A DNA stretch of 64,000 nucleotides from Methylotenera sp. (GTDB taxonomy: Bacteria > Pseudomonadota > Gammaproteobacteria > Burkholderiales > Methylophilaceae), in assembly GCA_030682715.1 (NCBI GenBank), contig JAUXNQ010000066.1, forward strand, positions 14,587-78,586, written 5' to 3'. Made by a program: the position numbers and the translations under genes. Shown one piece after another: positions 76 to 8,815 of this stretch. The notes beneath the pieces are model-generated. The model was not told the origin of the DNA. It was given only the letters and a program-made list of their open reading frames with translations, and did not search any database. Every line of letters starts with the position of its first letter. Position 1 is the stretch's first letter.

Positions 76-285
76 TTAACCAACCAAACCGTAACCAGCG
101 TTTTTCACAGCCGATTTAAGCTGCTCTGGGGAAGTTAAGTTCTCGTTGTATTGAACCTGAGTATCACCAGTTGATAAGTCCACCTGCACTGCATCAACAC
201 CATTAATAGATTTCAGCGCACGCGTTAAACTATTTACGCATCCACCACATGTCATGCCAGTTACTTTTATAAGTTCTGTTTTCAT
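76..285 (-). CDS. copZ: HMA-domain copper chaperone (CopZ-like)
   Basis: 69 aa with GMTCGGC (GMxCxxC) motif; last gene of the copper operon. Confidence 0.88.
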   Translation of the reverse strand: MKTELIKVTGMTCGGCVNSLTRALKSINGVDAVQVDLSTGDTQVQYNENLTSPEQLKSAVKNAGYGLVG

Positions 286-302
286 AATAACTCTCCTTAA
301 AT

Positions 303-884
303 TTAGTGTGTATGTGGATGCAGGGAATGCTCATGAACTTGATCCAATGGCACTGCATCCGAATGGGGATGTTCACCCATGCCTGTCGTATTGTCACGGT
401 AGTAACTAGGGCCAACACCATCTTGTGGTGCTGGCAGCGACATCACGCCCAATCCATGCCGGTAGACTAACTCTCCACCATGCCATGCTGTGATGACGAC
501 TATACTCCATGCACCAACCACCGCAATTACAACCCACCAAACAGTGGGTGAATCTATCTTGTTATGCCAGACATCCCAACCAGCCAAAATGATTAAAACT
601 ACCGATGTTCCTAGCGCCCAGTTACGGTGGATTAACATGGCAGCGTGACTTGCATCATCATGGGTTACGCTGTTATAAGCCTGCCATCCAAAAAAAACAG
701 CTGGCAATACTGATAATGCGCTTAGCCATAATAGAGTGCGAGCAAGAACGGCAAAGTTTGTAGACAAGAACTTCTCTCGCGTTACCGTAGCCGCAATATG
801 AAAAAGAGCTGACACCGTGATAAGTGCAATTGGAAAGTGTACTATCGATGGATGCAGATTAGGTATTATTTCAGGCATTTGCAA
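303..884 (-). CDS. DUF2231-family membrane protein with His-rich C-terminal tail
   Basis: N-terminal LHPSIVHFPIAL motif, about 4 hydrophobic helices, HGGELVY motif, tail HPHS...HEHSLHPHTH; overlaps cusA 3' end. Confidence 0.75.
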   Translation of the reverse strand: MQMPEIIPNLHPSIVHFPIALITVSALFHIAATVTREKFLSTNFAVLARTLLWLSALSVLPAVFFGWQAYNSVTHDDASHAAMLIHRNWALGTSVVLIILAGWDVWHNKIDSPTVWWVVIAVVGAWSIVVITAWHGGELVYRHGLGVMSLPAPQDGVGPSYYRDNTTGMGEHPHSDAVPLDQVHEHSLHPHTH

Positions 885-3800
885 CCTCTTTCCTTTGGAG
901 TGATCTTTGTTTCACAAGTGCGTAAATCGCTGGGATTACGATGAGCGTCAGCACAGTGGCGGATACCATACCTCCTACCATAGGGGCAGCGATACGCCGC
1001 ATTAGCTCTGAACCTGTTCCGCTACTCAACATAACTGGAAACAGGCCTACGATACTTCCAGCAACAGTCATCATTACTGGACGTATCCGGTACACTGAGC
1101 CCTGCACCACTGCGGCGTAAATATCCGCTTGGGTGAGTTGCTCGCTCGCTGCTTCACGCTTTGCTTTGATCTCTTCAAGAGCCTGATTTAGATATACCAA
1201 CATCACCATGCTGGTTTCGGCTCCAATACCGATTAAACCAATGAAACCTACTGCCGCCGCTATGCTCAGGTTGTAATCAAGCCAATACATCAGCCAGACG
1301 CCCCCGACCACGGAGAAAGGTACAGACAGCATTACCATCAGAGTCTCGCTAAAACGATTGAAATTCAAATATAGAAGTACGAATACAATCAGGATGGTGA
1401 TTGGTAATACGACCTTCAACTTTTCAATGGCGCGCTGCATGTACTCAAATTGGCCGCTCCAACTGATGTAATAGCCAGGAGGAAACTTAACCTGTTCACG
1501 AACTGCTTTTTGCGCGTCGGCAACATAACTACCAATATCTCGATCACGAATATCAACAAAAATATATGCTGACAGCAACGCGTTCTCAGTACGTATGCTT
1601 GGCGGACCTTTAACCAGCTTAACCTGTGCAAGTTGCCCAAGCGGTATCATCGCGGCTCCCATGGTTGGCACCAGCACCTGCGTGGCAATTGCCTGCGGAT
1701 CACTTCTCATGTCTCGAGGGTAGCGCACGTTAACGCCAAAGCGCTCGCGACCTTCCACCGTAGTAGTGACCATTTCACCACCTAGCGCCACCGAAACCAC
1801 ATCCAAAAGATCACCAACAGCCAATCCATAGCGAGATAGTGCCTCTCGGTCTGGAACTACATCCAAATAGTATCCGCCAGTAATACGTTCGGCATAGGCG
1901 CTTGTTGTTCCAGGTACTGTTTTAACAACGGCCTCAATCTGTTTAGCGAGAATTTCCATCTCGGTCAGATCCTTACCGAACACTTTGATACCAATCGGTG
2001 TTCGTATACCAGTGGATAGCATATCAGTTCTAGCCTTAATTGGCATAGTCCAGGCGTTACTTACCCCAGGCATTTGAACCGCTTTATCAAGCTCATCAAT
2101 TAACTTGTCGATAGTCATGCCGGGGCGCCACTGATCTTCAGGTTTGAGGTTGATAATAGTCTCAGCCATCTCCAAAGGTGCAGGGTCGGTAGCAGTATTT
2201 GCCCGCCCCGCCTTGCCGAAGACAGACTCCACCTCAGGAAAGCTTTTGATAATCTTATCCTGTGTCTGCAACAGTTCCGCTGCCTTAGTGACAGAAATGC
2301 TTGGCAATGTCGACGGCATGAAAAGCAGCGTGCCTTCATTCAAGGTCGGCATAAATTCCGTACCCAGTTTGAGCGCTGGATAAGCAGTCACCCCAAGCAA
2401 TGCAATTGCTGATAGGACGATAAAACCTTTCCATCGCATCACCCAGAACATTACTGGCCTATACAACCAAATCATCACGCGCACTAATGGATTGTTCTGT
2501 TCGGATGGAATTCGCCCACGAACCAGCAGCAATATCAACACTGGTACCAGCGTAATCGAAAGCAAAGCAGCGCCAGCCATAGCTAATGTTTTCGTATAGG
2601 CAAGAGGCAGAAACATCCGTCCTTCTTGAGCCTCCAGTGTAAACACTGGTAGAAACGATACTGTAATAATCAATAAACTGAAGAACAGTGACGGACCAAC
2701 CTCCTGGCATGCTTTAATAATTGCATCTATACGATTCTTGCCAGGTGATAAGCGTTCGAGATGCTTGTGCGAGGTTTCAATCATCACGATTGCTGCATCG
2801 GTCATCTCTGCAATAGCAATGGCAATGCCACCTAAACTCATGATGTTGGAATTTAAGCCCAAGAATCGCATCGCAATGAAGGCAACCAAAACGCCAATCG
2901 GTAGCATTATGATAGCCACAAGCGCACTGCGTACGTGCATAAGAAATACTACGCACACCAATGCAATAATGATGCCCTGTTGGATAAGAGTCTCACTTAG
3001 CGTGCTGATAGCACGATGAATCAACCCTGAACGGTCATACACGGCCTGAATTGAAACACCTTCTGGTAGGCCCGATGAAATCTCGTTGATTTTATTTTTT
3101 AGATTATGAATGACATCAAGTGCATTCTGCCCATGTCGTGCCACGGCGATGCCGCCAACCGCTTCGCCTTCTCCATTTAACTCTGCAATTCCTCTACGCT
3201 CGTCTGGAACCATTTCAACTCGGGCAACATCGCGCAAGAGCACTGGCGTACCCATGTCAGCCTTAACTACCAAAGTCTCAAGGTCGCTAATCCCGCGTAG
3301 ATAGCCCCTACCTCTAACGACATACTCAGTCTCTGCCATCTCAATTGCTCGACCGCCGACATCGCGGTTGCTCATGGCAATGACATTAGAAACTGTCTTG
3401 AGCGATATACCATAAGTCTGCAAACGTTGTGGGTTGACGGTAACCTGATAAGACTTTACAAAACCACCTATACTGGCTATCTCAGCGACTCCATGTGCCT
3501 TGGTCAATTGATAACGGACAAACCAATCTTGAATAGAGCGCAGTTCATCAAGGGTCTTATGCTTGGCTGTAACAACATATTGATAAACCCAACCTACGCC
3601 AGTAGCATCAGGACCTAACGAAGGCGTGATTCCCTTGGGTAATCTTCCCGCAGCAAAATTCAGGTACTCCAGCACACGCGAGCGTGCCCAGTAGATATCA
3701 GTCCCGTCTTCAAAGATGACATACACGAACGAAGCACCGAAGTTGGAAAATCCACGCACGACTTTGGATTTAGGTACCGACAGCATAGCTGTAGTGAGCG

Positions 3801-4002
3801 GGTATGTAACTTGGTCTTCCACTACCTGTGGTGCCTGCCCAGGATATTCCGTATACACGATGACCTGTACATCCGAGAGATCAGGAATCGCGTCGATTGG
3901 CGTGTTGATGACGCTATATATGCCCCAGGCTACGATAAAAAGTGTTCCGAGCAATACTAAAAAAACATGTCGAACTGACCATTCAATTATTTTATTGAGC
4001 AT
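871..4002 (-). CDS. cusA: CusA-type Cu(I)/Ag(I) RND efflux permease
   Basis: DAIPDLSDVQV and LGPDATGVGW motifs; Met-triad equivalents EFMP, PLEM, WTMP. Start reassigned to ATG at 4002 (MLNKIIEWS), 1 nt after the cusB stop; the ORF-track extension to 4131 overlaps cusB. Confidence 0.93.
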   Translation of the reverse strand: MLNKIIEWSVRHVFLVLLGTLFIVAWGIYSVINTPIDAIPDLSDVQVIVYTEYPGQAPQVVEDQVTYPLTTAMLSVPKSKVVRGFSNFGASFVYVIFEDGTDIYWARSRVLEYLNFAAGRLPKGITPSLGPDATGVGWVYQYVVTAKHKTLDELRSIQDWFVRYQLTKAHGVAEIASIGGFVKSYQVTVNPQRLQTYGISLKTVSNVIAMSNRDVGGRAIEMAETEYVVRGRGYLRGISDLETLVVKADMGTPVLLRDVARVEMVPDERRGIAELNGEGEAVGGIAVARHGQNALDVIHNLKNKINEISSGLPEGVSIQAVYDRSGLIHRAISTLSETLIQQGIIIALVCVVFLMHVRSALVAIIMLPIGVLVAFIAMRFLGLNSNIMSLGGIAIAIAEMTDAAIVMIETSHKHLERLSPGKNRIDAIIKACQEVGPSLFFSLLIITVSFLPVFTLEAQEGRMFLPLAYTKTLAMAGAALLSITLVPVLILLLVRGRIPSEQNNPLVRVMIWLYRPVMFWVMRWKGFIVLSAIALLGVTAYPALKLGTEFMPTLNEGTLLFMPSTLPSISVTKAAELLQTQDKIIKSFPEVESVFGKAGRANTATDPAPLEMAETIINLKPEDQWRPGMTIDKLIDELDKAVQMPGVSNAWTMPIKARTDMLSTGIRTPIGIKVFGKDLTEMEILAKQIEAVVKTVPGTTSAYAERITGGYYLDVVPDREALSRYGLAVGDLLDVVSVALGGEMVTTTVEGRERFGVNVRYPRDMRSDPQAIATQVLVPTMGAAMIPLGQLAQVKLVKGPPSIRTENALLSAYIFVDIRDRDIGSYVADAQKAVREQVKFPPGYYISWSGQFEYMQRAIEKLKVVLPITILIVFVLLYLNFNRFSETLMVMLSVPFSVVGGVWLMYWLDYNLSIAAAVGFIGLIGIGAETSMVMLVYLNQALEEIKAKREAASEQLTQADIYAAVVQGSVYRIRPVMMTVAGSIVGLFPVMLSSGTGSELMRRIAAPMVGGMVSATVLTLIVIPAIYALVKQRSLQRKEVANA

Positions 4003-4003
4003 A

Positions 4004-5344
4004 TCAATGCCCCTTGTGTTCAGAATTGACAGTAGGGGTTGCTGGTTTATCGGTCTCGGATTTGTCCTGTTTGCCATGAGCCGAATGCCCGAAGCCTCCA
4101 ATTGCTGCCTTAAGATTACTTTCTGCATCAATCAGGAAATTGGCACTGACAACAACATTCTCTCCTGCACTTAAGCCTTCAATAACTTCAACATATCCAT
4201 TGCCGCGCATGCCGAGCTTGACGTCGCGTGGTTCGAACAGGCCTTCAGCGCGCTGTATTAGCACGATTTGGCGCGTACCGCTATCGAGTACGGCAGAGTC
4301 TGGTACCATTAAAGCATCGGCTTTGCCGTGGCCTGAGACTAATTGTACGGTGGCATACATCTCGGGCTTGAGTATTCCGTTTGGATTGTCGAGTTCGACA
4401 CGTATTTTGGCGGTCCGTGTCTCGGGTGTGACTGTCGGATAGATATAGGAAACTTTGCCAGTTAAAACTTTATCTGGATAAGCATTAACGCTGATATTCA
4501 CCGACTGCCCAACATGCACTAGTGCCAGATCTTGCTCAAACACATCAGCGAGAAGCCAGATTGATGAAAGGTCAGCAATCTTGAATAACGGCTCACCTGG
4601 CATGAAACGTATACCCGCTACTGCCATTTTTTCCAACACAACGCCATTAGCAGGGGAATACAATGTCAGCGTACGAGTTGCCTTACCATCTTTTATCAAG
4701 CGCTGTAACTGGGCATCGGAAATGTCCCAGTTACGGAGACGTTTGAGAGCACTTTCTGCCAATCGGCTGACACCAACCAGCGACTCCTCTGTACCGCTAC
4801 TTAACGATTGGCGACCATTCCAGGCGATCAGGTATTCCTCTTGCGCTGAAACTAATTCTGGGCTGTACACTTCCATCAGCGGCTGTCCGCGTTTTACTGG
4901 CTGACCAGTAGCGTTGACATGAAGCTTTTCAATATAACCCTCAAACTTCGTCGTAACTGTGTGCAGACGTCTTTCATCCAACTGAAACTGGCCAACAGCA
5001 CGCACCGTCTGGACTAATTCACGTAGTGCAGCTGGCTCTGTCCTCACCCCCAACTTCTGCACCTTCTCAGGGCTGATCTTGATTTGACCAGACTGCACTT
5101 CATCACCTTCATAGACTGGAATATAATCCATGCCCATAGAATCTTGTTTAGGTTCAGGTGATGTATCTGACAAACCCATCGGATTGCGATAATAGAGAAT
5201 TTTCTTTGTGGCGGATATAGAAGTGCCCGTTGAGACTTCGGTCGATGACTTGTTTGATTGCTTTAATCCCAACCAGTAACCGCCCCATGTGGCAACAGCA
5301 ATGCCAATTAGCGCTAGTGCAACCCATATTACAGAGCGTTTCAT
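4004..5344 (-). CDS. cusB: CusB-type RND periplasmic adaptor with N-terminal heavy-metal-binding domain
   Basis: YYRNPMG...DSMGMDYIPVY metal domain, GQPLMEVYSPEL and RTAKIRVELDN adaptor motifs. Confidence 0.9.
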   Translation of the reverse strand: MKRSVIWVALALIGIAVATWGGYWLGLKQSNKSSTEVSTGTSISATKKILYYRNPMGLSDTSPEPKQDSMGMDYIPVYEGDEVQSGQIKISPEKVQKLGVRTEPAALRELVQTVRAVGQFQLDERRLHTVTTKFEGYIEKLHVNATGQPVKRGQPLMEVYSPELVSAQEEYLIAWNGRQSLSSGTEESLVGVSRLAESALKRLRNWDISDAQLQRLIKDGKATRTLTLYSPANGVVLEKMAVAGIRFMPGEPLFKIADLSSIWLLADVFEQDLALVHVGQSVNISVNAYPDKVLTGKVSYIYPTVTPETRTAKIRVELDNPNGILKPEMYATVQLVSGHGKADALMVPDSAVLDSGTRQIVLIQRAEGLFEPRDVKLGMRGNGYVEVIEGLSAGENVVVSANFLIDAESNLKAAIGGFGHSAHGKQDKSETDKPATPTVNSEHKGH

Positions 5345-6645
5345 AAATCTTCCCCAATCATTTTTTCAATCTCAGCAAAGCGCATTTCTTGCTCCACTCT
5401 GGCTCTTATTTGGCCTTGTCTCGCAAGTCTTATTGCTTTTTGTGCATCGAGCAGTGTAGCGAAGTCAACCTTGCCATTTTCGTATCCAGCCAATGCCGAG
5501 CGGAAGGTCAACTCTGCTTGTGGGAGTAATGTATAAGTGATCAGCCGCCCTTGTTTTTCTGCTGCCTCGAAAGCTACTAGGTTTTCTTGCAACTCGCCTA
5601 TTACCTGATTCTCCACTCCGTTACGGCGCTCTTTGGCTGCATCCAGCATAGCGGCAGCCTCACTCTCCTGAGATCTACGAGTATCGAACTGGATTGGAAT
5701 ATTGACCTCCACCATCGCCTCCCAGCTACTGATATTGCCACCACGCTGAGTAGGGGCAATGCCAAGCATTAGATCCGGGTAACGATTCTTTTCTATTAAT
5801 CGCTTGTTAGCGTCTGCGGTCAATATTTGTGCTGATTGTGTAGCAAGTAGTGGATTATTTCGTACCACCTTTTCCTGCAGGACCGCAGTATCCAGCTTTT
5901 CTAGCGGTAAACGACGCAACTCTGGTAACGTGGAAAGCGCTGCACTCTGCGTGCGCCCAAGTGTTGCATTAAGGCGTGACTTAGCCTGTTGCTGTTCAGT
6001 TTCCAGAACAATAATTTCGGACTGCAAGGTGGTTTTTTCAACCTGAGCGCGAATCGCATCTTGCTGGGGTACTAAACCACTGGCATAGCGAACGCGAGTG
6101 ACAGATTCAAGATCACTTAGCAAAGTTAAAATATCCTCGTTAAGCTTCTTCAGGCCAATAGCCTGAAAATACTGGGCATAAGCGTTTTTGATACGGGCGT
6201 GGGTTTCGGCAACGCTGATTAGCCTGCGTCCTTTAAACTGCTCAAGCTGTGCAGTAGCCACTTCCCTGCGTAAGTCACGCTTTCCCCAAAGGGGAATGTT
6301 CTGCATTAAAGTGTATTTAGTTCCACTTCCTTTGCCAAAAAAAGGATTAAATCCATCTGGCGCATCTCGTCCTGCAAAATCCATTAACTCGACGCGTAGC
6401 AACGGGTCAGGCAGCGCACCTGCTGGCGCGATTCGCTCGCTCGCTGCATCAGTTTCATATCTCATTGCCGCAAGCTCAGGGTTGTGCGTGTCTGCCCAGT
6501 TCAGTAATTCCTGCACATTGGCACCGATAGCGTTGCTGGAAGGAACGTCTTCCGCCGATGAAAGCCCTGGCAACATGAATGCTACTAAGGTCAGAACGAG
6601 CATTGTTTTTGAATTGTTTATATACATTATCTTACCTGTATTCAT
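5341..6645 (-). CDS. TolC-family outer-membrane efflux protein (CusC role)
   Basis: Signal peptide, HNPEL, ALPDP, YASGLV and YENGKVDFATLL repeats; directly upstream of cusB with ATGA overlap. Confidence 0.88.
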   Translation of the reverse strand: MNTGKIMYINNSKTMLVLTLVAFMLPGLSSAEDVPSSNAIGANVQELLNWADTHNPELAAMRYETDAASERIAPAGALPDPLLRVELMDFAGRDAPDGFNPFFGKGSGTKYTLMQNIPLWGKRDLRREVATAQLEQFKGRRLISVAETHARIKNAYAQYFQAIGLKKLNEDILTLLSDLESVTRVRYASGLVPQQDAIRAQVEKTTLQSEIIVLETEQQQAKSRLNATLGRTQSAALSTLPELRRLPLEKLDTAVLQEKVVRNNPLLATQSAQILTADANKRLIEKNRYPDLMLGIAPTQRGGNISSWEAMVEVNIPIQFDTRRSQESEAAAMLDAAKERRNGVENQVIGELQENLVAFEAAEKQGRLITYTLLPQAELTFRSALAGYENGKVDFATLLDAQKAIRLARQGQIRARVEQEMRFAEIEKMIGEDL

Positions 6646-6686
6646 CTCAATGGCTAGCTCGCTAAGTTGCGGCTAGCCCAGATGCC

Positions 6687-7016
6687 TTATTTAAGCGGTT
6701 TTATTTTTGTAATCAATGGACCGCCACCGTCAACTTTAACGAACTCAAATTCAACCTGATCTCCAACTTTTACCGTATCCAGCAGAGTCTTGTCAGCTAC
6801 GTTAAAAAACATGGTCATACCAGGCCATTGAAGCTCTGGAACAGCGTCATGCTTCAATTTAACCTTGCTTAATGCACCGTCCACGGCAACTACTTCACCT
6901 TTTGCAGAATAACTCTTTTGATTACCTACAGTCTGATGGTGGGCATCGTTGGCGTAGACTGGAGCAGCAACGATACTCAATATCGCTACGAACATGCAAA
7001 TTAATAACTTTTTCAT
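6687..7016 (-). CDS. cusF: CusF periplasmic copper-binding chaperone
   Basis: Signal peptide plus LKHDAVPELQWPGMTMFF (His/Trp/Met/Met site). Confidence 0.9.
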   Translation of the reverse strand: MKKLLICMFVAILSIVAAPVYANDAHHQTVGNQKSYSAKGEVVAVDGALSKVKLKHDAVPELQWPGMTMFFNVADKTLLDTVKVGDQVEFEFVKVDGGGPLITKIKPLK

Positions 7017-7074: not shown

Positions 7075-7461
7075 TTAGTGCTTATGCTTATCAGCACTCA
7101 TACATCCCATTTCTTTTTGCATGTGATGTTCTTTCATCATCTGCCCCATCAAGTCATCCATAAGTTTCTGATGCTCATTGATCCAGTCCTCATGCTCCTG
7201 CATTGTCATACCTGACTTCGGTTTCATCTTCTGCATCTTTCCCATGGTGTCACCCATCATTTTCATGTGCTCTTCCATCAGTTTTACTTTCTCAGCCCCA
7301 GTTGCAGCTTCTGCCTCTTTAAGCTTCTGCTTGGCTTTCAAAACTTGTTGAGTCATCTGCCTTTGAAACTCGTCCTTAGCTGCGTTCGCGGATACGGATA
7401 AAAAACTGAGACTACATACAGCAAGTATTGCAATCATTCTATTAATGTTGTGTTTTTTCAT
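7075..7461 (-). CDS. Secreted Met/His-rich helical protein, putative periplasmic Cu(I) binder
   Basis: Start at 7461 (MKKHN) with AGGAG RBS; 27-aa signal peptide ending ANA; mature 101 aa has 17 Met and 7 His by manual count. Confidence 0.75.
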   Translation of the reverse strand: MKKHNINRMIAILAVCSLSFLSVSANAAKDEFQRQMTQQVLKAKQKLKEAEAATGAEKVKLMEEHMKMMGDTMGKMQKMKPKSGMTMQEHEDWINEHQKLMDDLMGQMMKEHHMQKEMGCMSADKHKH

Positions 7462-7774
7462 GATAAATACTCCTAGTTGATAAAAGGTCACTACAGTTTT
7501 GCTTCACGAAGGAACGTCAATGTTATGCACTTGGTTAGCTGTCTATAAAAGACGTGTAAACATTGATACCCTTCGCTCTGCAATTCTTTAGAAGTGGTTC
7601 AGTATGTCGTGAAGGTATCTGTATAGGCGTGAAAAGCCATACGCTAAACCTCGAACGGATATAAAACCACCGCCGGGAATACGTGCCGAAGAAATGAAAG
7701 TGTGTTAGGTACGATCAAATACTCAGATAAGCATCTGAGTTCAAGAGCCGTTTAAAACAAGACGACCTTCGGCA

Positions 7775-8146
7775 CTATGCGAAGGTTTGCCTGGGGGGAT
7801 GAAAAAGTGAGGGTGGAACTGTGTCTGGAACTTCAGATATATCAGTGGAGTACATAGGTAATGTGCCACTAAATTCCAGAGGGGTGTTAAATGGAATAAT
7901 TGCCTGAGCTACGCTTAAATGGCAAGGCAGACACTTGTCACATGTTACATTGTTAGCTGGTTTTGCACTGTCATGGTGATCGCAGTGAGTCATATCGTCC
8001 ATATTGTTCATGTCAGCACCAACCATCATTTGGTGAGGGTCGTGCATTTGACAATTAGGCATAGCCACAGCTGCAATGCCTTCTAAGGGGAGGCATATCA
8101 GCATAACGAAAAGCGTAATGAATTTAATTATTGAAGTATTCACCAA
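7775..8146 (-). CDS. DUF2946/CopL/CzcI-like leader protein (CruR-like upstream ORF)
   Basis: N-terminal hydrophobic segment, His/Met/Cys-rich middle, CDKCLPCH, Pro-rich C-terminus ending HPPRQTFA; heads a metal-efflux operon. Confidence 0.65.
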   Translation of the reverse strand: MVNTSIIKFITLFVMLICLPLEGIAAVAMPNCQMHDPHQMMVGADMNNMDDMTHCDHHDSAKPANNVTCDKCLPCHLSVAQAIIPFNTPLEFSGTLPMYSTDISEVPDTVPPSLFHPPRQTFA

Positions 8147-8262
8147 ACAACTTTACGCCTAAATAAAGTTCTTTGCAATTGCTTGTACGTTCATTACTAG
8201 ATAAAACATAGAAATTTTATATATGCGTCCGTTATTGGCTGATTCCAACAGGGCAGACAACG

Positions 8263-8815
8263 TTACTGACGCGGACTTAACGTAACCACCAAGCCACGGT
8301 CGGTCACTTTCATTTCTTTTGGATAATATTATGTTGTGCCAACCTTAAGCGAATCAGCCTTTACCGTATAAAGATTAAGGCCATTCAATAACTGGCTACC
8401 TAGCATCTTAGCTAGACCTGTCATTGCATCTGCATACTTTGGCTCTACGCCATCAATCACAAAATCATCGACTTCTGCATCGTTTAGAATCACTGAGTTG
8501 CTGACAGTATCTAACTGTAAGTTGCCCGATACTGCTAGCTTCCCTGCCATTTTTTTGCCAGTGAGTTGATTCATTAACTGCGTATCAAATTTTGTATATA
8601 TCCTACCTGTCGCATGGTCAAACTTAACATTTGCATTACTTAAACTAAGATCGAACACTTTGAGCAAAGATAACGGAATCACCAGCTTTTCATTCAGCTT
8701 GGTTTGAATTTGTTGCTCGGAGATATAGACTGTTTTATTTGAGAAACCAGCACAGCCCGATTAAGATGAAAATAATCGGAAATATGAGGCTTAAGAATTT
8801 AGCATTAATCCTCAT
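8263..8815 (-). pseudogene. DUF1439-like lipoprotein pseudogene (one frameshift plus one premature stop)
   Basis: ATG 8815 MRINAKFLSLIFPIIFILI, extra G at 8756-8758 breaks the LIGC lipobox; frame resumes GCAGFSNKTVYISEQQIQ; in-frame TAA at 8329-8331, then YYPKEMKVTDRGLVVTLSPRQ to the stop at 8263. Confidence 0.75.

What the first reader, a model, noticed from the sequence alone, without database searches (positions are those of the whole stretch)
7683..8146. CruR-like copper-sensing arrest peptide wired to a mutually exclusive RNA switch ahead of an efflux operon
Seen: the 123-aa leader ORF has an export-type N-terminus, a His/Met/Cys tract, CxxCxxC and a Pro-rich tail ending HPPR four residues before the stop. 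Its stop codon (7775-7777) lies in the loop of a 7-bp hairpin (7765-7771 / 7780-7786). The 3' arm of that hairpin can instead form a perfect 9-bp helix (7767-7775 with 7683-7691). A ribosome paused at PPR (7790-7798) would cover the 5' arm and favour the second fold. Established: the DUF2946 protein CruR of Bordetella uses CxxC plus a C-terminal RAPP stalling motif to control a copper importer post-transcriptionally. Inference: here the same logic may control an exporter, needing opposite polarity, and may replace a transcription factor.
Basis: partly seen in the sequence, partly recalled or inferred. Interest (0 to 1): 0.75.

Follow-up and report, generated by a model that had tools for sequence, protein, structure and literature searches.

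The report
Copper-sensing leader peptide before efflux operon
A small exported, cysteine-rich peptide gene with a conserved proline stall site and a conserved two-state RNA fold sits in front of a copper-efflux gene island that has no regulator gene. It is most likely a new variant of the known CutF/CruR type of copper-sensing leader peptide, not a new kind of system.

Summary
The leader ORF (8143/8146..7775) is translated: pN/pS is 0.16-0.43, and five Cys plus H116-P117-P118 are invariant. The hairpin with the TAG stop in its loop is real, and so is the competing helix (7775-7766 with 7692-7683).

About 30 distinct related loci keep both folds. Divergent relatives rebuild the stop hairpin from different sequence. 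They keep the competing helix through a compensatory C-G to U-A change.

The first ~170 nt of the 313-nt spacer diverges 3-7 times less than synonymous sites in most comparisons.

The peptide gives no Pfam DUF2946 match. It carries HPP[R/K] instead of RAPP and has shorter motif spacing. Its distant relatives do reach DUF2946, and it meets every published sequence and context criterion for a "CutF-like" protein.

Control of a copper-detoxifying gene with this polarity is already shown for CutF. CutF-like genes upstream of RND efflux genes are already catalogued (Ozturk 2023).

Downstream lie CusF, CusCBA, a CopZ-like protein and a P-type ATPase, with no regulator gene. No CueR or CusS was found in the 95%-complete genome.

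A C>G bubble over the stall site suggests a Rho-type output. Stalling, copper response and the output step are all untested.

The parts
8150..8178 (-). Promoter-like element: TTGCAA (8178-8173), a 17-nt spacer, then TAAAGT (8155-8150). It ends only 6 nt before the conserved start codon, so the mRNA may be leaderless.
   Evidence: This is the only upstream block conserved in all clades, although the flanking genes differ. The geometry is the same in L021, L023, L057 and L059. It matches 8 of 12 consensus positions, below the 9-of-12 threshold of the scan. It is an inference.
7775..8146 (-). Leader ORF. It is 123 aa from TTG 8146, but more likely 122 aa from the conserved GTG at 8143. The stop is TAG at 7777-7775.
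   Evidence: 21 homologues, with C32 C55 C69 C72 C75 H116 P117 P118 invariant. pN/pS is 0.16-0.43.
8063..8143 (-). Predicted Sec-type signal peptide, residues 2-28, with a likely cut after AVA.
   Evidence: The N-terminal pattern is conserved in A1 and A2. AlphaFold2 gives a confident helix at residues 4-27. No dedicated signal-peptide predictor was available.
7922..8062 (-). Candidate metal-binding tract rich in His, Met and Cys. It includes C69xxC72xxC75 at 7942-7922.
   Evidence: hhalign pairs C72xxC75 with the CxxC of true DUF2946 proteins.
7780..7860 (-). C>G bubble (C 31-36%, G 10-17% in 78-nt windows) over the 3' end of the ORF. It is a candidate Rho-utilisation site.
   Evidence: A bubble in the same relative position, starting inside the leader ORF and ending in the intergenic region, is reported for cruR (PMC9426467).
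7790..7801 (-). HPPR codons, the candidate arrest site. The Pro codons are 7798-7793.
   Evidence: H, P and P are invariant in A1, and PP is invariant in A2. Position -1 is always H or R in A1; H or R predominate in A2 (T also occurs). His and Arg at -1 promote stalling at PPP motifs (PMC4176338). Five residues follow PP in 20 of 21 (A1) and 34 of 49 (A2) sequences.
7760..7792 (-). Stop-codon hairpin (segments 1:2). Core arms are 7786-7780 and 7771-7765; the outer helix is 7792-7789 with 7763-7760.
   Evidence: z = -2.44. L057, L059 and L023 have equivalent hairpins built from other sequence, with z of -2.1 to -3.3. L021 has one with z = -0.3.
7754..7764 (-). U-rich tail after the hairpin. It gave the only terminator-like hit in the scan.
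   Evidence: 1 hit found against 1.6 expected. The tail is missing in L057 and L023 and weak in L021, so it is not a conserved intrinsic terminator.
7721..7740 (-). Middle hairpin: 8 bp with a GCUU loop.
   Evidence: 91% of cells are paired, and compensatory changes occur at several pairs.
7688..7713 (-). C-rich, G-poor stretch leading into the downstream partner of the long-range helix.
   Evidence: Read directly from the sequence. It is left single-stranded when the stop hairpin is forced. Its role is inferred.
7683..7692 (-). Downstream partner (segment 3) of the long-range helix. It pairs with 7775-7766 (segment 2).
   Evidence: 95.7% of cells paired, against 34-57% when the partner is slid. 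C-G changes to U-A in L021, L057 and L059; L023 and L024 carry the same pair.
7560..7774 (-). Conserved proximal spacer of about 215 nt. Its first ~170 nt are under the strongest constraint.
   Evidence: In five of eight comparisons (L002, L018, L036, L048, L049), divergence is 0.03-0.13 over the first ~120 nt and 0.03-0.20 over the next ~70 nt. Synonymous divergence in the ORF is 0.20-0.41 in those pairs. The distal spacer is near neutral in most comparisons. L017, L050 and L051 are less constrained. No Rfam family matches.
7078..7474 (-). AGGAG ribosome-binding site (7474-7470) and a 128-aa exported Met/His-rich ORF (7461-7078). This is the first gene after the spacer.
   Evidence: Searches found no family. 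A homologue follows a paralogous leader in L009.
76..7016 (-). CusF (7016-6687), CusC/OEP (6645-5341), CusB (5344-4004), CusA (4131-871), DUF2231 (884-303) and an HMA/CopZ-like gene (285-76). A P-type ATPase follows just outside the window.
   Evidence: Pfam hits. The ATPase is at L073 6276-8573, minus strand.

Best explanation
The leader is a cis-acting copper-sensing arrest peptide of the CutF/CruR class, and it heads a self-contained copper-export island.

Proposed mechanism:
1. The peptide is exported while it is being made.
2. When the ribosome reaches HPP[R/K], the Cys/His/Met tract lies about 40-50 residues back, near the outer side of the membrane.
3. Copper binding there prolongs the pause. 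This is the CutF polarity.
4. The paused ribosome sits on the C-rich 3' end of the ORF and opens the 5' arm of the stop-codon hairpin.
5. The freed 3' arm pairs with its second partner 85 nt downstream.
6. Together these events keep Rho, or another factor acting on naked leader RNA, off the transcript.
7. RNA polymerase then crosses the 313-nt spacer and the Cus/CopZ/ATPase genes are expressed.
8. Without copper, the ribosome finishes and leaves, the stop hairpin re-forms and the C-rich RNA is exposed. Transcription or mRNA survival then ends in the spacer.

Shown here:
- the ORF is under purifying selection as a protein;
- the motifs and their spacing are conserved;
- both helices are conserved, with compensatory change;
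- the proximal spacer is constrained;
- a C>G bubble covers the stall site;
- the island has no regulator gene.

Inferred: export, copper binding, stalling, the polarity, and a Rho-type output.
For: Coding and motifs:
- Five Cys and HPP are invariant in 21 homologues, and PP is invariant in 49 distant relatives.
- pN/pS is 0.16-0.43.
- The distance from CxxC to PP is identical in all 21 sequences. Five residues after PP is the rule.
- His or Arg before the prolines promotes stalling at PPP motifs (PMC4176338).

Family link:
- 13 of 49 distant relatives hit PF11162 at E below 0.01, the best at 1.1e-7, and at least two exceed the Pfam cut-off.
- The A2 profile against true DUF2946 proteins gives hhalign E = 3.3e-4.
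- All published sequence and context criteria for CutF-like proteins are met, and RND efflux genes are their commonest neighbours (PMC9973294).

Mature protein: AlphaFold2 predicts mostly coil, with pTM 0.26. CruR is described the same way.

RNA:
- A stop hairpin is present in five lineages with different arm sequences.
- The long-range helix is chosen by RNAalifold and shows a compensatory C-G to U-A change.
- The two states are within 3 kcal/mol, and the hairpin forms first.
- The proximal spacer is conserved 3-7 times more than synonymous sites in most comparisons.
- The C>G bubble is centred on 7850-7784, as in cruR.

Context:
- The island has no regulator gene.
- The 95%-complete genome has no CueR match and no CusS-type kinase above cut-off.
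- In other genomes the cassette is flanked by IS or Tn7-like genes instead.
Against: - There are no experimental data for this clade.
- The window's own protein gives no Pfam match. A1 against true DUF2946 proteins is weak (E = 0.024).
- A two-proline motif is a weaker staller than PPP or RAPP.
- The comparative RNA evidence rests on few independent lineages. One column pair carries most of the covariation.
- Several sequences break a pair: L040 and L045, plus L035, L038 and L048 at the helix end.
- The 7-nt repeat in the L023 group is not significant on its own. A perfect complement of 7 nt or more occurs in about 15% of shuffles of the window's own spacer.
- No output element is evident. The next gene's ribosome-binding site is unpaired in both states. 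A 3:4 pairing is weak and has no U-tract.
- A weak internal promoter in the spacer cannot be excluded. The promoter scan would also have missed the promoter proposed here upstream of the leader.
- In the wider family the hairpin usually lies after the stop codon, not across it.
Confidence: 0.5

Rival explanations
1. Same class of sensing leader, but the output is ribosome occupancy alone, as in CruR and TnaC. The stalled ribosome masks a Rho-utilisation site at the ORF end. The stop hairpin and long-range helix only shape or insulate the spacer and do not act as a switch.
For: The C>G bubble lies exactly over the stall site, as in cruR, where Rho dependence was shown. The downstream partner is transcribed too late to stop a hairpin-dependent event at the U-rich tail; this follows from the order of transcription. 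No output element tied to the second fold was found.
Against: The mutually exclusive design is kept even though the hairpin register and sequence change between clades. The long-range helix has a compensatory change.
Confidence: 0.2
2. The ORF encodes a working periplasmic metal-binding or regulatory protein acting in trans, as proposed for CzcI. The cus genes have their own promoter in the conserved spacer, controlled by an unlinked factor. The stop hairpin is just the terminator or 3' stabiliser of the small gene.
For: The protein is exported and rich in metal ligands. The hairpin plus U-rich tail is terminator-like. The conserved spacer could hold a promoter or operator. The 313-nt spacer is longer than most reported for CutF-like genes (under 100 nt).
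Against: The mature part is predicted to be largely unstructured. PP and its distance to the stop are invariant. The U-tract is not conserved. G-U pairs in L021 fit a sense-strand RNA, not a DNA operator. No CueR or CusS-type sensor was found. No sigma-70-like hit falls in the spacer, though that scan is insensitive.
Confidence: 0.2
3. Translational control at long range. The U-rich codons just before the prolines (7806-7799) pair with the start region of the next gene (7461-7454) and hide its start codon. A stalled ribosome releases it.
For: The minimum-energy fold of 7830..7440 closes with this 8-bp A/U helix.
Against: The helix is weak and made only of A-U-rich pairs. It is missing from the fold that starts at 7798. 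A common synonymous T-to-C variant breaks it. The distal spacer varies in length by about 90 nt.
Confidence: 0.05
4. The two helices are chance complementarity inside a sequence that is conserved for other reasons.
For: The single-sequence tests are only moderate: about 1% for the 9-bp helix, and 4 of 200 shuffles match the hairpin. Most orthologues are too similar to be informative.
Against: Divergent clades rebuild both features with different bases.
Confidence: 0.05

Closest known systems
CutF of Rhodobacter capsulatus (PMC9973294; bioRxiv 10.1101/2025.02.05.636593)
   Same: A small Sec-exported peptide with a Cys motif about 45 residues before a C-terminal proline motif. It is the first gene of a copper-detoxification operon. 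Copper prolongs stalling and switches the downstream gene on. CutF-like genes are reported most often upstream of OEP/CusA/CusB/CusF genes.
   Different: CutF has CxxxC and PPP, with a short spacer whose stem-loop hides the next gene's ribosome-binding site. Here the motifs are CxxCxxC and HPP[R/K]. The hairpin straddles the stop codon and there is a second partner 85 nt downstream. The spacer is 313 nt, and the next ribosome-binding site is predicted to be free.
CruR (Bp2923) of Bordetella pertussis, DUF2946 (PMC9426467)
   Same: A leader ORF with CxxC and a C-terminal PP arrest motif, a C>G bubble around the ORF end, a long structured spacer, and an operon of copper genes. A Rho-dependent output is plausible here too.
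   Different: CruR controls an importer, and copper relieves its stalling. Its motif is RAPP three residues from the end, 45 residues after CxxC. Its signal peptide is dispensable. The window's protein fails the Pfam model, the RAPP motif and the spacing.
TnaC / tna operon of E. coli (as summarised in PMC9973294)
   Same: A ligand-dependent stalled ribosome at the end of a leader ORF blocks Rho access, so transcription continues across a long spacer.
   Different: TnaC senses a cytoplasmic ligand inside the ribosome tunnel and stalls at the stop codon. It is not exported and no RNA switch is involved.
trp-type ribosome-mediated attenuators (own knowledge)
   Same: The position of the ribosome on segment 1 decides whether segment 2 pairs with segment 1 or segment 3.
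   Different: No convincing 3:4 intrinsic terminator follows. The signal would be peptide arrest, not starvation for a charged tRNA.
CopL of Xanthomonas/Stenotrophomonas and CzcI of Cupriavidus (as cited in PMC9973294)
   Same: Small Cys/His-rich ORFs upstream of copper or metal resistance operons, and members of the wider CutF-like network. CopL acts only in cis.
   Different: CopL precedes a multicopper oxidase gene. CzcI lacks the C-terminal proline motif and is proposed to act as a protein regulator.

Membership tests
DUF2946 / CruR family (PF11162) | Match to the Pfam model above its gathering score (23.7 bits) | tested here: not met
   The window's protein has no hit at E up to 1. Only 2 of 21 close homologues hit, the best at E = 0.0042. 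Among distant relatives found with the A1 profile, 13 of 49 hit at E below 0.01, and P0095 (30.1 bits) and P0098 (25.6 bits) pass the cut-off. hhalign gives E = 0.024 for A1 against true members and 3.3e-4 for A2.
DUF2946 / CruR family (PF11162) | Conserved CXXC motif | tested here: met
   C69, C72 and C75 are invariant. C72xxC75 aligns with the family's CxxC.
DUF2946 / CruR family (PF11162) | C-terminal RAPP arrest motif three residues before the end | tested here: not met
   The motif here is F-H-P-P-[R/K] followed by four more residues. Most true members fetched here end in R-A-P-P or R-G-P-P plus 2-4 residues.
DUF2946 / CruR family (PF11162) | 45 residues (within one or two) between CXXC and the arrest motif | tested here: not met
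   39 residues lie between C75 and F115, or 42 counted from C72. The distance is identical in all 21 A1 sequences. The family figure comes from PMC9426467.
DUF2946 / CruR family (PF11162) | N-terminal export signal | tested here: met
   There is one Lys, a 13-residue hydrophobic core and an AVA site, conserved in A1 and A2. AlphaFold2 gives a confident helix at residues 4-27. This rests on inspection; no signal-peptide predictor was available.
DUF2946 / CruR family (PF11162) | First gene of an operon of copper-homeostasis genes, followed by a long spacer | tested here: met
   The spacer is 313 nt.
DUF2946 / CruR family (PF11162) | Copper-dependent change in ribosome arrest, and Rho-dependent termination | not testable with these tools
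   Only a C>G bubble at the expected place could be shown.
CutF-like proteins (criteria of Ozturk et al. 2023) | [quoted passage not shown] | tested here: met
   The protein is 122-123 aa. PP lies 7 and 6 residues from the end. The signal peptide was judged by inspection. The next gene is 313 nt downstream on the same strand.
CutF-like proteins (criteria of Ozturk et al. 2023) | A stem-loop that hides the ribosome-binding site of the next gene (CutF mechanism) | tested here: not met
   AGGAG at 7474-7470 and the ATG at 7461 are unpaired in the free, hairpin-forced and helix-forced folds. They lie about 300 nt from the stall site.
CutF-like proteins (criteria of Ozturk et al. 2023) | Copper prolongs stalling during export | not testable with these tools
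   This needs toeprinting, pulse-labelling or reporters.
Ribosome-mediated transcription attenuator (trp type) | Mutually exclusive pairings 1:2 and 2:3, with segment 1 inside the leader ORF | tested here: met
Ribosome-mediated transcription attenuator (trp type) | A 3:4 hairpin followed by a U-tract that acts as the terminator | tested here: not met
   Only a weak 7-bp pairing with a 29-nt loop and no U-tract is predicted. The terminator scan finds nothing there.

The most novel reading that the evidence does not exclude
A mobile copper-resistance cassette with no transcription factor. Its only sensor would be a secreted nascent peptide translated from a possibly leaderless mRNA. Copper outside the cytoplasm would hold the ribosome at HPP[R/K], and the paused ribosome would flip a conserved 1:2 / 2:3 RNA switch. 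Together with masking of a C-rich site, this would stop Rho from ending transcription in the 313-nt spacer. That would join CutF-type sensing to a trp/TnaC-type transcriptional output, a combination not described for either CutF or CruR.
Probability: 0.3. Interest if true: 0.65.

Novelty: new variant of a known kind. Interest (0 to 1): 0.5.

Why it matters
Copper export in Gram-negative bacteria is usually explained by CueR or CusRS. CutF and CruR showed that a nascent peptide can do the sensing instead, but no case has been worked out for an RND or P-type ATPase export island. Such islands are nevertheless the commonest genomic partners of CutF-like genes.

This clade is a compact test case:
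- the motifs are invariant;
- the spacer is constrained;
- the two competing helices make clear mutational predictions;
- no regulator gene confounds the result;
- natural variants are already available, including HPPI and duplications that move the stop codon out of the hairpin.

It also shows that gene callers start this ORF 14 codons too late and lose part of the signal peptide. That error hides family members from rule-based surveys.

Tried and rejected
- CueR/MerR operator. The dyad ACCTTCG-N8-CGAAGGT resembles a CueR box, and on the plus strand it even has copA-like spacing. I rejected this. No CueR-like gene was found in the genome, and no gene lies downstream on that strand. Divergent clades replace the dyad with unrelated hairpins. 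L021 keeps pairing only through G-U pairs on the sense RNA.
- Conserved intrinsic terminator. The hairpin plus U-rich tail was the only terminator-like hit, but 1.6 hits are expected by chance. The tail is lost in divergent clades. A closely following ribosome would block the hairpin whether or not it stalls.
- Long-range pairing of 7806-7799 with the next start codon. Weak and not conserved.
- Known RNA families. None match at E up to 1.
- Sigma-70 promoter in the spacer. None was found on the minus strand, but the scan's threshold would also miss the weak promoter proposed upstream of the leader.
- Direct profile link to DUF2946. A1 against A4 is weak.
- Stop-straddling hairpin as a trait of the whole family. 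It is absent in more distant paralogues, which have hairpins after the stop instead.
- My first dinucleotide shuffler may not have randomised well. I repeated the test with a proper Altschul-Erickson shuffle.
- I did not use the count of structure pairs, because it needs a 371-character structure string. The same counts and slid-partner controls were computed in a script.
Full report
**1. What is in the sequence**

All features lie on the minus strand. An ORF runs from 8146 (TTG) to the TAG stop at 7777-7775 and gives 123 aa. Every relative aligns to the next codon, GTG at 8143, which is ATG in divergent clades. The real product is therefore probably 122 aa.

The protein begins with one Lys, a 13-residue hydrophobic core and an AVA site. 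A His/Met/Cys-rich tract follows, ending in C69xxC72xxC75. The tail is F-H-P-P-R-Q-T-F-A.

The stop codon lies in the loop of a perfect 7-bp hairpin, 7786-7780 with 7771-7765. The predicted fold adds a 4-bp outer helix that starts at the Arg codon directly after the prolines.

**2. Is it more than chance?**

In the single sequence the evidence is moderate.
- The hairpin region folds better than all but 4 of 200 shuffles (z = -2.44).
- A perfect 9-bp complement in the next 160 nt appears in about 1% of 20,000 shuffles.
- The whole leader-spacer RNA has z = -3.1.
- The two folds differ by 3 kcal/mol (-88.6 against -85.6). The hairpin forms first as the RNA grows.

**3. Comparative evidence**

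The protein has homologues at 47-93% identity, mostly from Methylotenera and other methylotroph assemblies. The window lies in a 95%-complete assembly. The gene was found in only 5 of 36 other species sampled in its genus.

C32, C55, C69, C72, C75, H116, P117 and P118 are invariant. pN/pS against eight orthologues is 0.16-0.43, so the ORF is translated and under selection as a protein.

Across about 30 distinct loci, the first ~170 nt after the stop diverge by 0.03-0.13 in most comparisons. Synonymous sites of the ORF diverge by 0.20-0.41. The distal spacer drifts at a near-neutral rate in most comparisons and varies in length by about 90 nt. L017 is an exception, and L050 and L051 are less constrained.

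RNAalifold on 30 sequences picks the long-range helix and a middle hairpin (7740-7721). The helix pair equivalent to C7771-G7687 is U-A in L021, L057 and L059. My own count gives 95.7% paired cells for this helix, against 34-57% when the partner is slid. The stop hairpin has 91% paired cells.

More telling is what relatives at 35-50% identity do. L057, L059, L023 and L024 carry a different hairpin across the stop codon, with z of -2.1 to -3.3. Their own 3' arm again has a complement at the homologous place about 65-75 nt downstream of the stop. The arrangement [quoted passage not shown] therefore persists while the bases and the hairpin register change.

Caveats:
- The independent lineages are few.
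- Some sequences break a pair.
- The 7-nt repeat of the L023 group would not be significant alone.
- More distant paralogues place their hairpin after the stop, not across it.

**4. Surroundings**

Downstream on the same strand lie, in order:
- a 313-nt spacer;
- a 128-aa exported Met/His-rich ORF with no known family;
- CusF, an OEP (CusC), CusB and CusA;
- a DUF2231 membrane protein;
- an HMA/CopZ-like protein;
- just outside the window, a P-type ATPase with YHS and HMBD domains.

No regulator gene is in the island. The genome gives no match to the CueR model, and no CusS/CopS-type kinase scores above cut-off.

In other genomes the same cassette is preceded by an IS30-like transposase or by TniB/TniQ-like genes. 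Upstream conservation begins only about 10 nt before a TTGCAA-17-TAAAGT element. The cassette therefore appears to carry its own promoter and its own control.

**5. Family relationship**

The window's protein gives no Pfam hit. A profile of the close homologues, searched against 1.8 billion representatives, found 84 proteins.

Of 49 full-length proteins aligned (the window's protein plus 48 of these hits), 13 hit PF11162 (DUF2946) at E below 0.01, the best at 1.1e-7. At least two exceed the Pfam cut-off over nearly the full model.

Fourteen true DUF2946 proteins were taken from genomes of the same order. The broad profile aligns to them with hhalign E = 3.3e-4 (probability 38%). That alignment places C72xxC75 on the family's CxxC. 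The narrow profile gives only E = 0.024.

Three defining features of DUF2946 as described for CruR fail:
- the Pfam match;
- RAPP three residues from the end;
- 45 +/- 2 intervening residues. Here there are 39, the same in all 21 sequences.

I therefore do not file it as a DUF2946 member. It does meet every published criterion for "CutF-like" proteins: under 150 aa, a signal peptide, PP in the last 15 residues, and a same-strand neighbour within 1000 nt.

AlphaFold2 models only the signal peptide with confidence and leaves the mature part mostly as coil (pTM 0.26). CruR is described in the same way.

**6. What is already known**

CruR senses copper through CxxC and stalls at RAPP. Copper relieves the stall, which exposes a Rho-utilisation site in a C>G bubble at the ORF end, so an importer is switched off.

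CutF is exported through Sec. Copper bound to its periplasmic Cys motif prolongs stalling at PPP. [quoted passage not shown]

The same authors report that CutF-like genes with Cys motifs lie most often upstream of OEP, CusA, CusB and CusF genes, and that their modes of action probably differ. I found no paper that tests it for an RND system.

**7. How it most likely works**

A 78-nt sliding window shows C at 31-36% and G at 10-17%, centred on 7850-7784. This is the ORF end including the proline codons, and it matches the position of the CruR bubble.

His (or Arg in relatives) always precedes the prolines in the close homologues. Both residues promote stalling at PPP motifs.

With Pro118 in the P-site, the 5' arm of the hairpin lies at +9..+15, inside the ribosome. 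The stop codon and the 3' arm lie just outside.

My best reading has four steps.
1. Copper prolongs the pause (CutF polarity).
2. The paused ribosome covers the C-rich RNA and segment 1.
3. Segment 2 then pairs with segment 3, which also buries a second C-rich stretch (7713-7688).
4. Rho, or a nuclease, is kept off, so polymerase crosses the spacer.

Without copper the ribosome leaves, the hairpin re-forms and the C-rich RNA is bare.

The structure and conservation are shown. Export, copper binding, stalling, polarity and Rho involvement are inferred.

The hairpin is unlikely to be an intrinsic terminator for two reasons. Its U-rich tail is not conserved. A closely following ribosome would block it whether or not it stalls. 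The CutF output is also unlikely here, because the next ribosome-binding site is far away and unpaired in both folds.

**8. Verdict**

The clade is best described as a new variant of the CutF/CruR kind of copper-sensing leader. What sets it apart:
- the HPP[R/K] tail;
- a hairpin across the stop codon with a conserved competing helix;
- a long constrained spacer;
- a regulator-free export island.

I set interest at 0.5.

Noticed in passing
window 8141-8178 (minus strand); same place in L021, L023, L057, L059: The only upstream block conserved in all clades is TTGCAA, 17 nt, then TAAAGT. It ends 6-7 nt before the start codon (GTG here, ATG in divergent clades). No Shine-Dalgarno sequence is present. 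The leader may be translated from a leaderless mRNA.
   Followed up: partly
window 8104-8146; proteins P0005, P0008-P0017: Most database homologues are annotated as 109 aa starting at Met15. That removes the charged start and part of the hydrophobic core of the signal peptide. Conservation of the 14 upstream codons shows the start is mis-called, so rule-based surveys that require a signal peptide would miss these genes.
   Followed up: partly
window 7078-7461 (minus strand); L009 2023-2403; L023 3676-4062: A 126-128 aa exported Met/His-rich protein with no Pfam or NCBIfam family follows the leader. A homologue follows a paralogous leader in another genome, so it may be a regular partner, perhaps a periplasmic copper binder.
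   Followed up: no
L009 (G020:C11:34474-37821): A paralogous locus holds two CutF-like leaders in tandem, with tails LLHPPKQSFS and LERPPRFTLT. They lie next to a CsoR/RcnR-like gene and a divergently oriented CDF (CzcD-like) gene; these two names come from reading the sequences, not from a family search. Here a leader coexists with a classical metal regulator.
   Followed up: no
L040 and L043 (leader tail): Two natural variants have HPPI instead of HPPR/K. L040 also has a C-A mismatch in the long-range helix. These are ready-made tests of the residue after the prolines.
   Followed up: no
L017 3369-3400; L041 3369-3385: Two loci carry an 11-15 nt duplication at the ORF end. It moves the stop codon upstream of the hairpin, yet a new 5' arm is created and the hairpin is kept.
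   Followed up: partly
L016 1246-2406; L023 7-2739; genus survey: The cassette sits next to an IS30-like transposase or TniB/TniQ-like genes in other genomes. It was found in only 5 of 36 other species sampled in the genus, so it looks horizontally mobile.
   Followed up: partly
window 7649-7656 with 7685-7691 (minus strand): When segment 2 is left out of the alignment, RNAalifold pairs the downstream partner CUUCGGC with GUUCGAGG. That would be a possible fourth segment, as in classical attenuators. It is weak (two G-U pairs, a 29-nt loop) and has no U-tract.
   Followed up: partly
window 8329-8682 (minus strand): The ORF upstream of the cassette matches only part of DUF1439 and scores below the Pfam cut-off (23.2 against 25.9 bits). 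It may be a remnant at the insertion boundary.
   Followed up: no
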